7,406 bases of DNA from a virus (taxonomy: Duplodnaviria; Heunggongvirae; Uroviricota; Caudoviricetes), in IMG/VR virus record IMGVR_UViG_2065487007_000059; one strand, written 5' to 3'. Position numbers and translations under genes: made by a program. This document shows, one piece after another, positions 1,630-6,780 of the stretch (within the stretch, counting starts at the first letter, position 1; each line of letters begins with the position of its first letter). The notes below the pieces were generated by a model. That model was not told where the DNA came from. It did no database searches and saw nothing but the letters and a program-made list of their open reading frames with translations.

Positions 1630-2714
1630 TACTGGCGGCCCTCATAGTTCTGTTCAATCCACGATTGATAGGCACCACTTTTCACATTATCAACCCATTT
1701 TGTATTGGACAGGTACCATTCCACCGTTTTACGAATCCCGCTCTCAAACGTTTCCTGTGGTTTCCATCCCAATGCGCGACCAATCTTCTCAGCATCAATA
1801 GCATAGCGGCGATCGTGTCCCGGACGATCAGCAACATAAGTGATTTGCTCACGATAAGATTTCTCTTTCGGTACAATCTCATCCAGCAAATCACAAATAG
1901 TGAGCACTACATCGATGTTTTTCTTTTCGTTGTGCCCACCAATGTTATAAGTTTCACCCGCTTTACCTTCGGTTACGACGGTATATAACGCACGCGCATG
2001 ATCTTCAACATACAACCAGTCGCGGATCTGATCTCCTTTGCCATAAATAGGTAATGCCTTACCTTCCAGTGCATTAAGAATAACCAGTGGAATAAGCTTT
2101 TCCGGGAAATGATAAGGACCATAGTTGTTCGAGCAATTAGTCACAATTGTCGGTAAACCATATGTACGTTTCCACGCGCGGACTAAATGATCGCTGGATG
2201 CTTTGGATGCGGAATAAGGGCTGCTTGGCGCGTAAGCTGTCGTCTCAGTAAATAAGGGTAATTCTTCTGTATTATTTACTTCATCTGGATGAGGCAAATC
2301 ACCATAGACTTCGTCAGTAGAAATATGATGAAAACGGAAGCTATTTTTCTTGTCGCTATCAAGAGCAGACCAGTAATTGCGAGCGGCTTCCAAAAGGACA
2401 TAAGTACCAACAATATTGGTTTCAATAAATGCCGCAGGGCCTGTAATTGAACGGTCAACATGGCTTTCAGCAGCCAGGTGCATCACTGCATCCGGCTGAT
2501 GCTGAGCAAAAATCCGTGCCATTGCAGGTGCATCGCAAATATCCGCATGTTCAAAAACATAGCGTTCAGAATCAGAAACATCAGCAAGTGATTCCCGGTT
2601 TCCGGCGTACGTTAATTTATCGACATTAACAACACTATCCTGCGTATTATTTATAATGTGACGAACTACAGCTGAACCAATAAATCCTGCGCCACCAGTA
2701 ACAAGTATTTTCAC
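1629..2714 (-). CDS. rfbB: dTDP-glucose 4,6-dehydratase (RmlB/RfbB), 361 aa, GTG start
   Basis: ORF-track 361-aa protein [23 protein letters not shown]... has the [12 protein letters not shown]-binding motif and the YSASK (YxxxK) catalytic motif of short-chain dehydrogenase/reductase family dehydratases. Start codon is GTG at 2714..2712 (plus-strand cac). An upstream ATG in another frame hits a stop after 2 codons. First gene after the JUMPStart leader. Confidence 0.93.
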
Positions 2715-2789
2715 TTAATTTATTCCATATTACTTCAGAGCATGCTGTGAAATAAGCGGCTCTCAGTTTGATTAATAGAGGTATTAATG

Positions 2790-2801
2790 CACGCTACCGC
2801 C
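2790..2801 (-). promoter_or_regulatory. ops (operon polarity suppressor) element, the RfaH recruitment site on the non-template strand
   Basis: Minus-strand GGCGGTAGCGTG at the 3' end of the JUMPStart element matches the ops consensus GGCGGTAGnnTG. Lies 76 nt upstream of the rfbB GTG start. Confidence 0.85.
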
Positions 2802-2828
2802 CCTGGCTTTACAGCTACCAGAGCACTG
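2790..2828 (-). promoter_or_regulatory. JUMPStart element (39 bp) in the 5' leader of rfbB
   Basis: Minus-strand sequence CAGTGCTCTGGTAGCTGTAAAGCCAGGGGCGGTAGCGTG matches the conserved JUMPStart sequence found upstream of polysaccharide gene clusters, as I recall it. It contains two direct copies of GGTAGC (plus-strand gctacc at 2793..2798 and 2814..2819). Confidence 0.85.
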
Positions 2829-2982
2829 CATGCATGCCTATGATGTGACGAGCGTTACCCACTCGCGCTAAACCCGAAAAATTCAAACGCTAATTGTCTT
2901 ACCAATCCGCTCTGGAAACAAGGAAAATCCTGGAAAACTTTGAATAAAACCCTACTGCTAACTCGTTGTTATTCTGATGGTT

Positions 2983-3012
2983 TATATAAAACAACGGCAG
3001 GAAGATTCGCAA
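2983..3012 (-). promoter_or_regulatory. Candidate sigma70 promoter for the rfb operon (-35 TTGCGA at 3012..3007, -10 TATATA at 2988..2983, 18-nt spacer)
   Basis: Hexamers read directly on the minus strand in the galF-rfbB intergenic region, upstream of the JUMPStart element. Motif match only, with no transcript data. Other weak matches exist in this AT-rich region. Confidence 0.25.
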
Positions 3013-3086
3013 CAAATTACTTTTGCTGCGAATTTTCACTGCCGTTATAATTTTCTTATCAACCGTTACATCCGGTCAGATTTTCA

Positions 3087-3980
3087 TTATTCGCTTAACA
3101 GCTTCTCAATACCTTTACGGAACTTCGCCCCTTCTTTCAGGTTGCGTAGGCCATACTTCACAAACGCCTGCATATAGCCCATTTTTTTGCCGCAGTCGTA
3201 ACTGTCGCCGGTCATCAGCATTGCATCAACGGATTGTTTTTTCGCCAGCTCGGCAATAGCATCAGTCAGCTGAATACGTCCCCATGCACCAGGCTGAGTA
3301 CGTTCCAGTTCCGGCCAAATATCGGCAGAAAGCACATAGCGACCTACGGCCATGATGTCTGAGTCCAGCGTCTGCGGCTGATCCGGTTTTTCGATAAATT
3401 CAACAATGCGGCTGACTTTACCCTCACGGTCCAGCGGCTCTTTAGTCTGGATGACGGAGTATTCAGAGAGGTCACCCGGCATACGTTTTGCCAGCACCTG
3501 GCTGCGGCCCGTTTCGTTGAAACGTGCAATCATGGCAGCAAGGTTGTAACGTAGCGGGTCGGCGCTGGCATCGTCGATCACAACGTCTGGCAGTACCACG
3601 ACAAATGGGTTGTCACCAATGGCAGGTCGCGCACACAAAATGGAGTGGCCTAAACCTAAAGGTTCGCCCTGACGCACGTTCATAATGGTCACGCCCGGCG
3701 GACAGATGGACTGTACTTCCGCCAGCAGTTGACGCTTCACGCGCTGCTCAAGGAGTGATTCTAACTCATAAGAGGTGTCGAAGTGGTTTTCGACCGCGTT
3801 CTTGGACGCGTGAGTTACCAGGAGGATTTCTTTGATCCCTGCAGCCACAATCTCGTCAACAATGTACTGAATCATTGGCTTGTCGACGATTGGTAGCATC
3901 TCTTTGGGTATCGCCTTAGTGGCAGGCAACATATGCATCCCGAGACCCGCTACAGGAATAACTGCTTTTAAATTCGTCAT
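3087..3980 (-). CDS. galF: GalF, UTP-glucose-1-phosphate uridylyltransferase paralog (non-catalytic/regulatory GalU-like subunit), 297 aa
   Basis: ORF-track protein [55 protein letters not shown]... The GTG at 3992 lies immediately after AGGTGG with no spacing, whereas the ATG at 3980 sits about 9 nt downstream of AGGTGG, so I call the start at 3980 (MTNLK...). Stop TAA at 3089..3087. Confidence 0.92.
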
Positions 3981-4010
3981 TATTTCATCCACCTGTAAAA
4001 TGGTTGCTGA

Positions 4011-4016
4011 ATTATA
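4011..4016 (-). promoter_or_regulatory. Candidate galF promoter -10 hexamer (perfect TATAAT)
   Basis: Minus strand reads ...GCTGGCGAAAAAAATCGAACAAGC-TATAAT-TCAGCAACCATTTTACAGGTGGATGAAATA-ATG. TATAAT lies about 31 nt upstream of the galF ATG and is preceded by an A-tract. No good -35 hexamer at 16-18 bp spacing (best CTGGCG). Confidence 0.4.
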
Positions 4017-4154
4017 GCTTGTTCGATTTTTTTCGCCAGCATCAATTACCCTGAATTGATTACTGAATTACTTGTGATGTTACGCCGCTTCGTTGTGGAT
4101 TGCAGTAGCATTGTTCCTAAGTATGACTCCATTTTTCCAGGAATGGTCGCAAAT

Positions 4155-5549
4155 CTACTCCCTCAGTTCCGGCAATCTAAAGTTAATCTTCTCCACATTA
4201 ACAATATGGTGATTAATCCTGTCGATATCGACGGAGCTTTGTCCTTTTTCATTCACCGCATGAACATTTGCAAGAGACAGCAGTGTTTCTTTTTTCGCCA
4301 TAAAAACACCACGAACGTCTTTGCGCATGTCAAAGTTCATGCTCAATGCGGGTCCAACTGAGGATTCCTGCATCACATTGATATTTCGCATAAAAAAATG
4401 TTGCGGTTTGTTGTGTAACTCCAGCGACGCACGCTTCATCTCAATGTTAGTTAGCGCCACAAAGGAAACAGCATTCCCGGCGGAGATTTGAATGCCGCGC
4501 AATTTATAAGCAAGATGAGTATTATCCAGTTGAATATCATTCACCCGGAAATTTTGCGGTATCGAGAGATATTTGCCTTTAATTACCCCATAGCCGATTA
4601 ACATCCCGGCGCTATTAATCATTTCAATATTATCAATCACGAAATTGTCACAACCGTAAATAGCGACTGTCGCGTTATCAATGCCCGCTTTCTTACTGAA
4701 ATCCGGCGTGATATTGCGGGCTTTGATATTACGAATAACAAAATGTTTACCATTTTCAACATGTATCAACTGCCGACAATCCGATCCCGTGATATTCGCC
4801 ACGACAAAGTTTTTCACTGCCTGGTCTTCCGGGTAGTTGTTATCATAAGTGCTTCCCGCAAGGCCTATGCCGATGCCCCAGTTGATTTTGCCGTTGGTAC
4901 AGTTGATGCGCTCGATGACATGGTCAGATATCAAAATATCACGGTCGTTAATTGCCACGTTCCATTCAATGGCGTCGCCTTGTAAGTCGCTGAACTTACA
5001 ATTGGTGATGTTGGCACCGATAATCTGGTTATGAAATCCCTGGCGTAAGATGGCGTAATTAGCGTGGCTAACGGTCAGGTTATCGATGATCAGGTTGCGC
5101 ATGACCCGTTTGTTTTTGCCGCCGATATAAATCTGCGTCACCGGGCCAAAGCCGCTCATAGTCAGCCCTTTGATGGTGCAGTCAGAACCACGCACATCCA
5201 GGGTGATGTTATGCATACTGCCGCCATCCTCCCCTGTCACCTGGCTGCCGTCCTGTAAGACAAATCGCCCTCTGCCGTTGCCGCGCAAGCTTCCAAGAAT
5301 GTGTAACGTTTTACCGGGAGGGATAAAGATGCCGGTGTTGATATTGTCACAAACCAATCCGGCAGGCACGACGACTGTTTGCCCTTCGCTGAAGGCTTGT
5401 TTAAATGAGGCGATCCAGTCGTGTGGGTTGTAGTCGTTAATGTTAACGCTTTGTCGGGCGGGAAGCGCGCGGGCGAAAGGGGTATGGAGGAAGGCAAGCG
5501 CCGAGCTTGCCGTCAGGAACGTGCGTCGGGAGAGTTTTTTAAATGGCAT
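4155..5549 (-). CDS. wcaM: Colanic acid biosynthesis protein WcaM, 464 aa, twin-arginine signal peptide plus parallel beta-helix repeats; biochemical function unassigned
   Basis: ORF-track protein [31 protein letters not shown]... has an SRRxFL Tat motif, a hydrophobic stretch and an AxA (ARA) cleavage site. The body carries repeated N-[IV]-x-[IV]-x-N beta-helix-like segments ([52 protein letters not shown]). AGGAGAA Shine-Dalgarno 6 nt upstream of the ATG at 5549; 10-nt gap after the wcaL stop. Confidence 0.9.
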
Positions 5550-5559
5550 GCGTTCTCCT

Positions 5560-6780
5560 CTATAAAGCCTGCAGCAAGCTGGCGAGTTCTCGATTGATCA
5601 CCTGCTGGTTAAAATCGTGTTCAACTTTTTCGCGCGCGCGTTTGACGACCGGAGCCAATTCGTCGGTGTCCAGTTGGCTAAACGCCGCCAGTCGTTGCGC
5701 CAGTGCGCGAGCATCGTTCTCAGGCACCAGCCAGCCGGATTTGTCAGCCTCCACCAGTTCCGGTATTCCACTATGCAGAGTAGAAACCACCGGAATACCG
5801 ACCGCCATCGCTTCCATTAGCGCCACCGGAATACCTTCCATATCACCATCCGCACCTGTAACCGATGGCAACAGGAAGACATCCGCGTCGTCGAGCATCG
5901 CTTTCACTTCATGGCTCGGTTTAAAGCCCGGCATCTCCACCACATCTTCCAGTTGATATTGTTCGATGAGGGTGCGCAGGCGTCTTTCCCACGGGCCAAT
6001 GCCGAGGATGCGATAGCGAAATGCCACGCCCTGCTCTTTCAACTGACGGCAGGCTTCGATCGCCACATGCAGGCCTTTTTTCTCGGTTAAGCGTGCGACG
6101 GAAATAATCTCCAGCGGCGTTGCGGGCGCTTTCACGGGACGCGGGCTAAAGCGCGTCATATCTACGCCCATGCGCGATACGGCGATTTTTTCCCTCGGGC
6201 AGCCCATTTTTTGCAGCCTTCCGGCCCACAGATCGCTTATCGGTAACATCAGGTCGCCACGGCGAAACAGTTGCTGATATTCGGGAGTGTAGTGGTTGAG
6301 CACTTCCCGACTGGAGATATCAATACCGTGGAAGATAGTGGCAATTTTGCCGCGAATGACACCCAGTTCGCGGAGTTTTGCTGCGGTTACCCCCGCGGGA
6401 CCAAAATGAGCGATGAACACATCGGCGCGAAACGGTGTTGCGACCTGGCCGCAAATGGCAGACAAAATCAGGTTCCGCGACTCGGCACCATAGCGTTTGA
6501 GGTTGAGCGCCTGCCAGGTATTTTTACGATGAATGCCGCGCAAGGTCTGGCTGGCTCGGTGGCGCAGTTTCGCCACTTTGCCCGTAGGTTCGTCCTGTAA
6601 CCAGCGGGTTCTGGCAGCAAGGTTGTATTTCGTCCATGCCGCGTGGGTGTTTTGTGTGTCGCCTTTTTGCAGCGCGAGAATCTCTACCTCAAATCCCATA
6701 TCAATAAACGCGGTAATTTGGTTAAGGACGAAGGTTTCTGACGACAGCGGGAATTTCAGTAAAAAGAAGCCGACCTTCAT
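5560..6780 (-). CDS. wcaL: Colanic acid biosynthesis glycosyltransferase WcaL (GT4-family, GT-B fold), 406 aa
   Basis: ORF-track protein [37 protein letters not shown]... has a C-terminal EX7E motif (EGIPVALME) typical of GT4 retaining glycosyltransferases. ATG at 6780..6778 overlaps the wcaK TGA stop (ATGA, 4-nt overlap) and is preceded by GGAGG. Stop TAG at 5562..5560. Confidence 0.92.

What the first reader, a model, noticed from the sequence alone, without database searches (positions are those of the whole stretch)
4155..5549. WcaM: Tat-signal, beta-helix protein with no assigned role in colanic acid synthesis
Unlike its neighbours (glycosyltransferase, pyruvyl transferase), WcaM has no recognisable transferase motifs. 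It has a canonical twin-arginine signal ([17 protein letters not shown]...ARA) and repeated N-[IV]-x-[IV]-x-N segments that look like right-handed parallel beta-helix (pectate-lyase / tailspike-like) coils. That architecture is typical of secreted polysaccharide-binding or polysaccharide-cleaving proteins, so it may trim or modify colanic acid outside the cytoplasm. To my knowledge its biochemical role is unassigned, making it the least-understood gene in the window. It also appears more AT-rich than wcaL and wcaK.
Basis: partly seen in the sequence, partly recalled or inferred. Interest (0 to 1): 0.55.

Follow-up and report, generated by a model that had tools for sequence, protein, structure and literature searches.

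The report
WcaM: host-encoded periplasmic colanic-acid-cleaving enzyme
The last, still unassigned gene of the E. coli colanic acid operon encodes an exported beta-helix protein that is a clear relative of the enzymes phages use to cut colanic acid, so it most likely cuts the cell's own slime polymer in the periplasm; the gene is well known, but this gives its open function a specific, testable answer.

Summary
The window is E. coli K-12 DNA. The ORF at 4155-5549 (minus strand, 464 aa) is wcaM, the last gene of the colanic acid (CA) operon. SRRTFL twin-arginine signal (already listed as a Tat substrate in the literature). Predicted right-handed beta-helix. No transferase domain. GC of 47% against 55% for wcaL. 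The literal motif N-[IV]-x-[IV]-x-N has no match; a looser rung pattern is enriched.

WcaM is a sequence homolog of phage tailspike colanidases across the whole beta-helix: PDB 6E0V/6E0W Phi92 gp150 (E 6e-24, best fold match) and PHROG 6117 'colanic acid degradation' (E 7e-52). Homologs occur in 245 phage records. Three experimentally validated phage enzymes acting on CA or a CA-like capsule share D192, E195, H263 and E265 with WcaM.

Stand-alone bacterial relatives carry export signals and sit in polysaccharide loci. Phage relatives carry virion-anchor domains instead.

Best reading: a Tat-exported periplasmic endo-colanidase that trims or releases CA, analogous to Pantoea WceF. Activity is inferred, not shown. 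It is a new member of a known kind, of moderate interest.

The parts
4155..5549 (-). wcaM coding sequence (464 codons plus TAG stop at 4155-4157), last gene of the colanic acid (cps/wca) operon
   Evidence: ORF list; 100% identical to E. coli K-12 wcaM; NCBIfam WcaM equivalogs above cut-off
5555..5559 (-). Shine-Dalgarno AGGAG in the 10-base gap between the wcaL stop codon and the wcaM ATG, consistent with translation from the operon transcript
   Evidence: Sequence read directly: TAG-AGGAGAACGC-ATG. The wcaM transcript is reported to mirror wza (PMC8117528)
5466..5549 (-). Tat-type signal peptide, residues 1-28 ([28 protein letters not shown]), with predicted cleavage after ARA
   Evidence: Translation. 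The identical peptide is tabulated as the WcaM Tat signal in PMC7549933. WcaM appears in Tat substrate tables. The cleavage site is inferred from the AxA rule
5514..5531 (-). Twin-arginine motif S7-R8-R9-T10-F11-L12
   Evidence: Translation. R8 and R9 are invariant in 24 orthologs. RR motifs occur in 10 of 16 stand-alone family representatives against 1 of 48 phage-type forms
4158..5465 (-). Mature protein, residues 29-464 (436 aa, about 48 kDa, pI 8.4): a single right-handed parallel beta-helix domain homologous to the central domain of phage colanidase tailspikes
4959..4979 (-). Motif G191-D-A-I-E-W-N197, holding candidate catalytic carboxylates D192 and E195
   Evidence: D192 is invariant and E195 at least 90% conserved in 27 diverse family members. 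G191, D192, E195 and N197 are invariant in the set containing three experimentally validated phage enzymes. The residues align to gp150 D387 and E390. The catalytic role is inferred
4854..4883 (-). Motif N223-W-G-I-G-I-G-L-A-G232, the rung between the two acidic motifs (probable substrate-groove wall)
   Evidence: W224, G225, G229 and G232 are invariant. G225 is invariant and W224, G227 and G229 are near-invariant. This motif was the pattern that retrieved relatives from 202 genomes
4749..4775 (-). Motif R259-Q-L-I-H-V-E-N-G267, holding candidates H263 and E265
   Evidence: H263, V264 and E265 are invariant in 27 sequences. Q260, H263 and E265 are invariant with the validated phage enzymes. 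They align to gp150 H461 and E463

Best explanation
WcaM is a Tat-exported, single-domain right-handed beta-helix glycoside hydrolase, a host-encoded 'colanidase'. It cleaves the colanic acid backbone in the periplasm or cell envelope. Proposed steps follow. (1) It is made from the Rcs-controlled wza-wcaM operon transcript together with the synthesis and export machinery. This is shown by gene arrangement and by the literature. (2) It folds in the cytoplasm and crosses the inner membrane through Tat, and the 28-residue signal is removed. The motif is shown here; export is taken from the literature. (3) The basic mature protein binds the polyanionic polymer along the beta-helix groove. Carboxylates on successive rungs (D192/E195 and E265, with H263) hydrolyse a backbone glycosidic bond. 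This step is inferred from homology and residue conservation. By analogy with Phi92 gp150, that bond is the glucose-fucose bond between repeat units. I infer that this is the bond the WcaD polymerase makes. (4) The physiological result would be control of chain length, release of polymer, and/or clearance of polymer stalled in the periplasm, as proposed for Pantoea WceF. This step is also inferred.
Against: No enzymatic activity of WcaM has been shown, here or in any paper I could find. The catalytic roles of D192, E195, H263 and E265 rest on conservation only. I could not inspect the 6E0W ligand contacts or the model coordinates. Identity to the validated phage enzymes is low (20-22% in the multiple alignment, 32-35% in the core), so bond specificity may differ. 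Salmonella wcaM deletions are used as 'colanic acid-deficient' strains and lose biofilm and H2O2 tolerance. That fits a gene needed for production at least as well as a trimming enzyme, although AlgL-type enzymes show both properties (background knowledge). WcaM lacks the N- and C-terminal modules of the trimeric tailspikes, so its oligomeric state is unknown, as is whether activity survives without them.
Confidence: 0.68

Rival explanations
1. WcaM is a colanic-acid-binding but catalytically inactive periplasmic protein. It would act as a lectin-like chaperone or scaffold that guides the nascent polymer from the WcaD polymerase and Wzc to the Wza channel, and would be needed for efficient production rather than for cleavage.
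For: No activity has been demonstrated. Salmonella wcaM mutants are treated as colanic-acid-deficient and have EPS-loss phenotypes. Beta-helix tailspike domains bind long stretches of polysaccharide. The mature protein is basic, pI 8.4. WcaM lacks the terminal modules of the active trimeric phage enzymes.
Against: The acidic residues and the histidine shared with three active phage depolymerases are invariant across the family, including WcaM orthologs. A pure binding protein would not be expected to preserve exactly this set. The analogous protein WceF is enzymatically active.
Confidence: 0.14
2. WcaM is a different kind of beta-helix polysaccharide-modifying enzyme. It could be a lyase acting at the glucuronic acid of the side chain, an epimerase, or an esterase, so that it changes colanic acid chemistry rather than cutting the backbone by hydrolysis.
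Against: None of those families is detectable by sequence with the family profile, apart from weak matches to the N-terminal cap region (E 5e-6 to 0.07), whereas gp150 scores 5.6e-161. The characterised homologs are described as hydrolases that produce colanic acid oligosaccharides.
Confidence: 0.08
3. wcaM is a decaying or functionless remnant of a phage tailspike gene that landed at the recombination-prone junction between the colanic acid and O-antigen clusters.
For: The closest non-orthologous relatives are phage tail proteins, 36-40% identical over the whole mature protein. GC is lower in the 3' 200 codons. The gene lies next to the O-antigen hotspot and is unusually polymorphic, 4-7% between strains. 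It is sometimes truncated by IS elements. A wcaM deletion had no competitive defect in a mouse infection model.
Against: Full-length orthologs at 75-98% identity occur across Escherichia, Salmonella, Citrobacter, Enterobacter, Kosakonia and Leclercia. 202 species-level genomes carry a relative. Synonymous differences far outnumber non-synonymous ones. The protein has a conserved Tat signal that phage forms lack. The operon position and RBS are conserved. Deletion phenotypes exist in Salmonella.
Confidence: 0.03

Closest known systems
Phage tailspike colanidases: Phi92 gp150 (PDB 6E0V/6E0W), NST1 colanic acid-degrading protein (HM214492), Sortsne/Lidtsur-type tailspike colanidases, Klebsiella phage KPPK108.1 Dep108.1 (PHROG 6117; Pfam PF27800 'WcaM')
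   Same: Homologous right-handed beta-helix over essentially the whole mature WcaM (residues about 86-459). Shared motifs are [24 protein letters not shown] and RQ.IHVE.G, with D192, E195, H263 and E265 invariant. The substrate polymer of the characterised members (colanic acid or the colanic-acid-like K108 capsule) is the one made by WcaM's own operon.
   Different: WcaM has a Tat signal instead of an N-terminal virion-attachment domain, and it lacks the roughly 135-145-residue C-terminal module of the phage proteins. It is chromosomal, operon-encoded and made by the producer of the polymer. Identity is only 20-22% overall to the validated enzymes. Activity and oligomeric state are untested.
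Pantoea stewartii WceF (PDB 6TGF by recollection; JBC 2021, PMC7949094), the stewartan-cluster glycanase
   Same: Encoded in a Wzy-dependent exopolysaccharide cluster related to colanic acid. It has a Tat signal peptide and a phage-tailspike-like parallel beta-helix, acts on the cluster's own polymer, and its loss lengthens chains. It is the best functional model for WcaM.
   Different: No detectable sequence relationship: the WcaM-family profile does not hit WceF in the PDB at E up to 10. WceF is larger (736 aa) and a native trimer. WcaM is a 436-aa single domain of unknown oligomeric state.
Periplasmic polysaccharide-processing enzymes encoded in other EPS operons (AlgL and AlgG of alginate, PslG, PelA, BcsZ, Vibrio cholerae RbmB)
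   Different: Different protein families and chemistries (lyases, epimerases, GH5/GH8/GH39-type folds), mostly in synthase-dependent pathways, and mostly Sec-exported. The comparison with AlgL, PslG, PelA and BcsZ rests on background knowledge and was not tested here.

Membership tests
WcaM (NCBIfam NF007517 / TIGR04004; Pfam PF27800) | Full-length match above the curated equivalog cut-off | tested here: met
   1024.5 bits against cut-off 808, and 972 against 794.6, covering residues 1-463. Database orthologs carry PF27800 'WcaM'.
WcaM (NCBIfam NF007517 / TIGR04004; Pfam PF27800) | Last gene of the colanic acid operon, after wcaK-wcaL and before galF | tested here: met
   The order wcaK-wcaL-wcaM-galF on the minus strand, with a 10-base gap and an AGGAG site.
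Phage colanidase beta-helix domain (Phi92 gp150 type, PHROG 6117) | Significant sequence similarity across the beta-helix domain | tested here: met
   phmmer E 6e-24; PHROG E 6.6e-52 over residues 86-459; Sortsne E 3e-22 over residues 90-451; profile against gp150 E 5.6e-161.
Phage colanidase beta-helix domain (Phi92 gp150 type, PHROG 6117) | Right-handed parallel beta-helix fold | tested here: met
Phage colanidase beta-helix domain (Phi92 gp150 type, PHROG 6117) | Conserved acidic/histidine constellation (gp150 D387, E390, H461, E463) | tested here: met
   WcaM D192, E195, H263 and E265 align to these residues. All four are invariant with the three validated enzymes; in the 27-member alignment D192, H263 and E265 are invariant and E195 is at least 90% conserved. 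Their catalytic role was not tested.
Phage colanidase beta-helix domain (Phi92 gp150 type, PHROG 6117) | Hydrolysis of colanic acid | not testable with these tools
   Needs purified protein and substrate. Known for gp150 and NST1 CAE only.
Phage tailspike (virion-borne depolymerase) | N-terminal virion-attachment domain and C-terminal module; phage genome context | tested here: not met
   WcaM starts directly with a signal peptide and ends where the phage C-terminal module begins. Its context is chromosomal and biosynthetic. It is therefore a homolog of the enzymatic domain, not a tailspike.
Twin-arginine (Tat) exported proteins | S/T-R-R-x-F-L-K consensus, followed by a mildly hydrophobic h-region and an AxA cleavage site | tested here: met
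   S-R-R-T-F-L-T matches 6 of 7 positions. The h-region has mean Kyte-Doolittle 1.62, and the c-region is FARA with a basic residue. RR is invariant in orthologs.
Twin-arginine (Tat) exported proteins | Match to the Pfam TAT_signal profile above the gathering score | tested here: not met
   12.5 bits against 22.7, E 0.15. Short-motif HMMs often miss true signals, so this weakens the case only slightly.
Twin-arginine (Tat) exported proteins | Tat-dependent export shown experimentally | not testable with these tools
   WcaM is tabulated as a Tat substrate in E. coli and Salmonella. I recall a signal-peptide fusion study (Tullman-Ercek et al. 2007) but could not read it.
WceF-like EPS-cluster glycanases | Tat signal, tailspike-like beta-helix, and location in a Wzy-dependent EPS cluster | tested here: met
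   for WcaM; for WceF.
WceF-like EPS-cluster glycanases | Detectable sequence homology to WceF | tested here: not met
   The family profile against all PDB sequences at E up to 10 does not return WceF. The relationship is an analogy of role and fold class only.
Beta-helix polysaccharide lyases and epimerases (PL6, AlgE/AlgG, RbmB, K1/K5 lyases) | Sequence-level membership or family catalytic motifs | tested here: not met
Glycosyltransferases or other transferases of the wca pathway | Recognisable GT, acyl- or pyruvyl-transferase domain | tested here: not met
   The Pfam scan at E up to 1 returns only the weak TAT_signal hit for WcaM, whereas wcaL and wcaK give strong transferase hits.

The most novel reading that the evidence does not exclude
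WcaM is the missing release and chain-termination factor of the colanic acid pathway. By hydrolysing the inter-repeat Glc-Fuc bond that the WcaD polymerase makes, it would cut the growing polymer off its undecaprenyl-diphosphate carrier in the periplasm. That would set chain length, recycle the lipid carrier, and explain why colanic acid is shed as loose slime. Group 1 capsule loci, which lack wcaM and carry wzi instead, yield a cell-bound capsule. On this reading, phage colanidases and WcaM are two deployments of one enzyme, exchanged between host and phage. P0183, which combines a Tat signal with the phage-type C-terminal module, would be a possible intermediate.
Probability: 0.15. Interest if true: 0.7.

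Novelty: new member of a known kind. Interest (0 to 1): 0.45.

Why it matters
Colanic acid is the general stress and biofilm exopolysaccharide of E. coli, Salmonella and their relatives. It is also a barrier against phages and a nuisance contaminant in plasmid preparations. By recollection, the repeat unit has been reconstituted in vitro without WcaM, and the reviews I read assign roles to the other operon genes, while a 2026 paper still calls WcaM's role unclear.

If WcaM is an endogenous colanidase, three things follow. First, the operon carries its own depolymerase, like the alginate, Psl, Pel, cellulose and stewartan systems. That extends the rule to the model Wzy-dependent pathway in the model organism. 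Second, chain length, release and lipid-carrier recycling in this pathway gain a candidate enzyme, with named residues to mutate. Third, phage colanidases and a host biosynthesis gene are shown to be one family, a clear case of enzyme sharing between a host pathway and the phages that attack its product.

There is also a practical point. Salmonella wcaM deletion strains, widely used as 'colanic-acid-negative' strains, may make altered polymer rather than none.

Tried and rejected
I replaced it with a looser rung pattern, which is enriched.

(2) The Pfam scan of WcaM gave only a sub-threshold TAT_signal hit, because the local Pfam copy predates PF27800.

(3) I tested whether the low-GC 3' half is a recently imported segment. 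Allele divergence among five E. coli strains is spread evenly along the gene, so this was rejected.

(4) I looked for an intrinsic terminator after wcaM. No terminator-like site lies on the gene's strand, and the intergenic fold is no better than shuffled sequence (z 0.23).

(5) I tested sequence homology to WceF and to lyase and epimerase families with a family profile against the PDB. None was found beyond weak N-terminal cap matches.

(6) The genome-wide scan for non-enterobacterial relatives returned mostly WcaM orthologs. One 'Chryseobacterium' contig and two 'Proteobacteria' MAG contigs turned out to carry enterobacterial-type clusters. Two sphingomonad loci are genuine, but naive ORF calling in high-GC DNA gave little neighbour annotation: one GDSL hydrolase and one hexapeptide acetyltransferase.

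(7) Literature searches for an explicit WcaM-to-colanidase link, catalytic residues of colanidases, or a biochemical wcaM phenotype found none in the searchable library. The Phi92 genome paper and Xu et al. 2025 were not held.

(8) The afdb50 fold library was unavailable.

(9) I could not obtain model or PDB coordinates, so active-site geometry and the 6E0W ligand contacts were not checked.

Full report
WHAT IS THERE

The window is E. coli K-12 DNA. The segment 4155-5549 is 100% identical to wcaM of MG1655 and other K-12 strains, and a match covering at least 80% of the gene is present in 4628 of 5426 complete E. coli genomes.

On the minus strand the window carries the 3' part of wcaK, then wcaL (5560-6780), wcaM (4155-5549), galF (3087-3992), rfbB (1629-2714) and rfbD (730-1629). 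wcaM is a 464-codon ORF. It starts 10 bases after the wcaL stop codon, behind an AGGAG ribosome-binding site. It scores well above the curated cut-offs of both NCBIfam WcaM equivalogs.

- Transferase motifs: WcaM has none in Pfam, whereas its neighbours give strong GT4 and pyruvyl-transferase hits.
- Signal peptide: the N-terminus [28 protein letters not shown]|LP carries SRRTFL, which matches 6 of 7 positions of the S/T-R-R-x-F-L-K consensus. A mildly hydrophobic stretch and an ARA site follow.
- The Pfam TAT_signal profile alone is below threshold. RR is invariant in 24 orthologs.
- WcaM, with exactly this peptide, appears in published tables of Tat substrates of E. coli and Salmonella. This part was therefore already known.
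- Motif: the literal N-[IV]-x-[IV]-x-N does not occur. The looser rung pattern [ILVF]-x-[ILVF]-x-[ND] occurs 14 times against 5.9 expected.
- GC content: 47.1% against 54.9% for wcaL. The drop is limited to codons 265-462.
- Alleles from five E. coli strains differ by 4-7%, evenly along the gene and mostly at synonymous sites. The low-GC part is therefore not a recent import, and the gene is under purifying selection.

FOLD

An AlphaFold2 model built on 24 orthologs has pTM 0.79 and mean pLDDT 77, with most of the core above 80. It consists of about thirty short strands.

HOMOLOGY, NOT JUST RESEMBLANCE

- The only solved structure detectable by sequence is gp150, at E 6e-24. A profile of the family matches gp150 over its whole crystallised length, at E 5.6e-161.
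- WcaM residues 86-459 match PHROG 6117, 'colanic acid degradation', at E 6.6e-52.
- 245 phage records encode a homolog. Most are coliphages, many were isolated on K-12, and most of the homologs are annotated as colanic-acid-degrading tailspikes.
- The Sortsne tailspike colanidase aligns to WcaM residues 90-451.
- Metagenomic phage proteins are 36-40% identical over the entire mature protein. One carries an N-terminal T7-tail domain, and another sits among baseplate genes.

The family is small, with 190 representatives among 1.84 billion. It comes in two architectures:

- Stand-alone proteins of about 400-500 residues. 10 of 16 start with an RR motif followed by a hydrophobic stretch, and others have Sec- or lipoprotein-like signals.
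- Proteins of 550-1000 residues with an N-terminal extension and a common C-terminal module of about 140 residues. Only 1 of 48 has such a signal.

All five distant stand-alone homologs whose contigs I could read lie beside glycosyltransferase or sugar-nucleotide genes. One, at 41% identity, sits in a rearranged colanic-acid-like cluster.

WHAT THE RELATIVES DO

- gp150 is reported to hydrolyse colanic acid at the beta-1,4 glucose-fucose bond (PMC13450770, citing Xu et al. 2025). By recollection, the PDB title of 6E0W says it was crystallised with one repeat unit of colanic acid.
- The NST1 enzyme depolymerises colanic acid in vitro and in fermenters (PMC9143390). It aligns to WcaM at E 3e-12.
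- Dep108.1 of Klebsiella phage KPPK108.1 is a validated depolymerase of the K108 capsule. A paper title describes that capsule as similar to E. coli colanic acid.

In an alignment of WcaM with these three enzymes and five other members, the invariant residues include D192, E195, H263 and E265, together with Q170, N197, W224 and Q260. D192, H263 and E265 are also invariant across 27 diverse members, and all are kept in the orthologs and E. coli alleles. They sit in three motifs spaced about one helical turn apart: GDAIEWN, NWGIGIG and HVE. Each lies on a predicted strand (194-197, 226-229 and 262-265). This is the arrangement expected for residues lining one face of a beta-helix groove. That last point is an inference, because I had no coordinates.

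MOST LIKELY MECHANISM

WcaM is made with the rest of the Rcs-controlled operon; its transcript is reported to track wza. It folds in the cytoplasm and is exported by Tat. As a basic (pI 8.4) single-domain beta-helix of 48 kDa, it binds the acidic polymer and hydrolyses a backbone bond.

If specificity follows gp150, that bond is the Glc-Fuc linkage between repeat units. I infer this is the bond made by the WcaD polymerase. WcaM would then shorten, release or clear colanic acid in the periplasm.

The closest functional precedent is Pantoea stewartii WceF. It has a Tat signal and a tailspike-like beta-helix, is encoded in the related stewartan cluster, is active on stewartan, and its loss gives longer chains. 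WceF is not detectably related in sequence, so it is an analog and not a family member.

What is shown: gene identity, signal motif, predicted fold, homology, residue conservation, family architecture and genomic context. What is inferred: catalysis, bond specificity and physiological role.

RIVALS

- An inactive binding or scaffold protein cannot be excluded, because no activity has been measured and Salmonella wcaM deletions behave as EPS-deficient. The preserved acidic constellation argues against it.
- A lyase or epimerase is compatible with the fold but has no sequence support.
- A dead phage remnant is contradicted by conservation across genera, purifying selection, the acquired Tat signal and mutant phenotypes.

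NOVELTY

The gene, its Tat signal and its location are textbook facts, and database curators have evidently noticed the similarity to phage proteins. Examples are PHROG 6117, the Pfam family 'WcaM' that covers phage proteins, and phage genes annotated 'putative colanic acid biosynthesis protein WcaM'.

I found no paper that assigns WcaM a hydrolase role or tests it. A 2026 paper says the role 'remains unclear'. Reviews of the pathway list a function for every other gene and none for WcaM.

The finding is therefore a well-supported functional prediction for a long-unassigned gene of a model pathway, and a new member of the known class of EPS-operon-encoded polymer-cleaving enzymes. A specialist would find it plausible rather than startling. 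Its value is that it makes the question directly testable, with named residues and positive-control enzymes.

Noticed in passing
window 2794-2801 (-), in the galF-rfbB intergenic region: A single exact ops element, GGCGGTAG, lies upstream of rfbB. This is where the JUMPStart/RfaH site of the O-antigen operon is expected. Chance expectation is 0.19 matches per window.
   Followed up: no
window 4155-4757 against 4758-5549 (wcaM codons 265-464 against 1-264): There is a GC step inside wcaM. GC3 is 0.59-0.68 in the first 264 codons and 0.42-0.49 in the last 200. Divergence between strains is no higher in the low-GC part, so the step looks old and is unexplained.
   Followed up: partly
window 4155-5549 compared with L009-L012: wcaM alleles of E. 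coli strains differ by 4-7% at the nucleotide level, mostly at synonymous sites. From background knowledge this is well above typical core-genome divergence. A 2026 study found wcaM to be the best single-gene predictor of O serotype. Both fit hitch-hiking with the adjacent O-antigen recombination hotspot.
   Followed up: partly
P0183 (605 aa, metagenomic): This protein combines a Tat-like signal (LSRRKFITG) and the WcaM-type beta-helix with the roughly 135-residue C-terminal module otherwise seen only in phage tailspike forms. It may be an intermediate between the host and phage architectures.
   Followed up: no
L016 (labelled Chryseobacterium sp. 18061), L018 and L093 (labelled Proteobacteria MAGs): L016 and L093 carry a typical enterobacterial wcaL-wcaM-galF arrangement, and L018 carries wcaL-wcaM at its contig end. 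The Chryseobacterium label is probably contamination or mis-binning.
   Followed up: partly
P0104 (761 aa): One ENA gene call fuses a WcaM domain (95% identical) to CoA_binding_3 and Bac_transf domains of the WcaJ type. This is probably an assembly or gene-calling artefact rather than a real fusion.
   Followed up: no
window 3993-4154 (wcaM-galF intergenic region): The 162-base spacer after wcaM has no terminator-like site on the gene's strand and no unusually stable fold (z 0.23). How the long cps transcript ends before galF is not evident from the sequence.
   Followed up: partly
L036 (Sphingomonas MAG) 7797-9050 and L065 (Stakelama sediminis) 2206-3456: These are genuine WcaM-family genes outside the Enterobacteriaceae. 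Both proteins begin with RR motifs and lie beside a GDSL-type hydrolase and a hexapeptide acetyltransferase respectively. This hints that the exported stand-alone form recurs in unrelated polysaccharide loci.
   Followed up: partly
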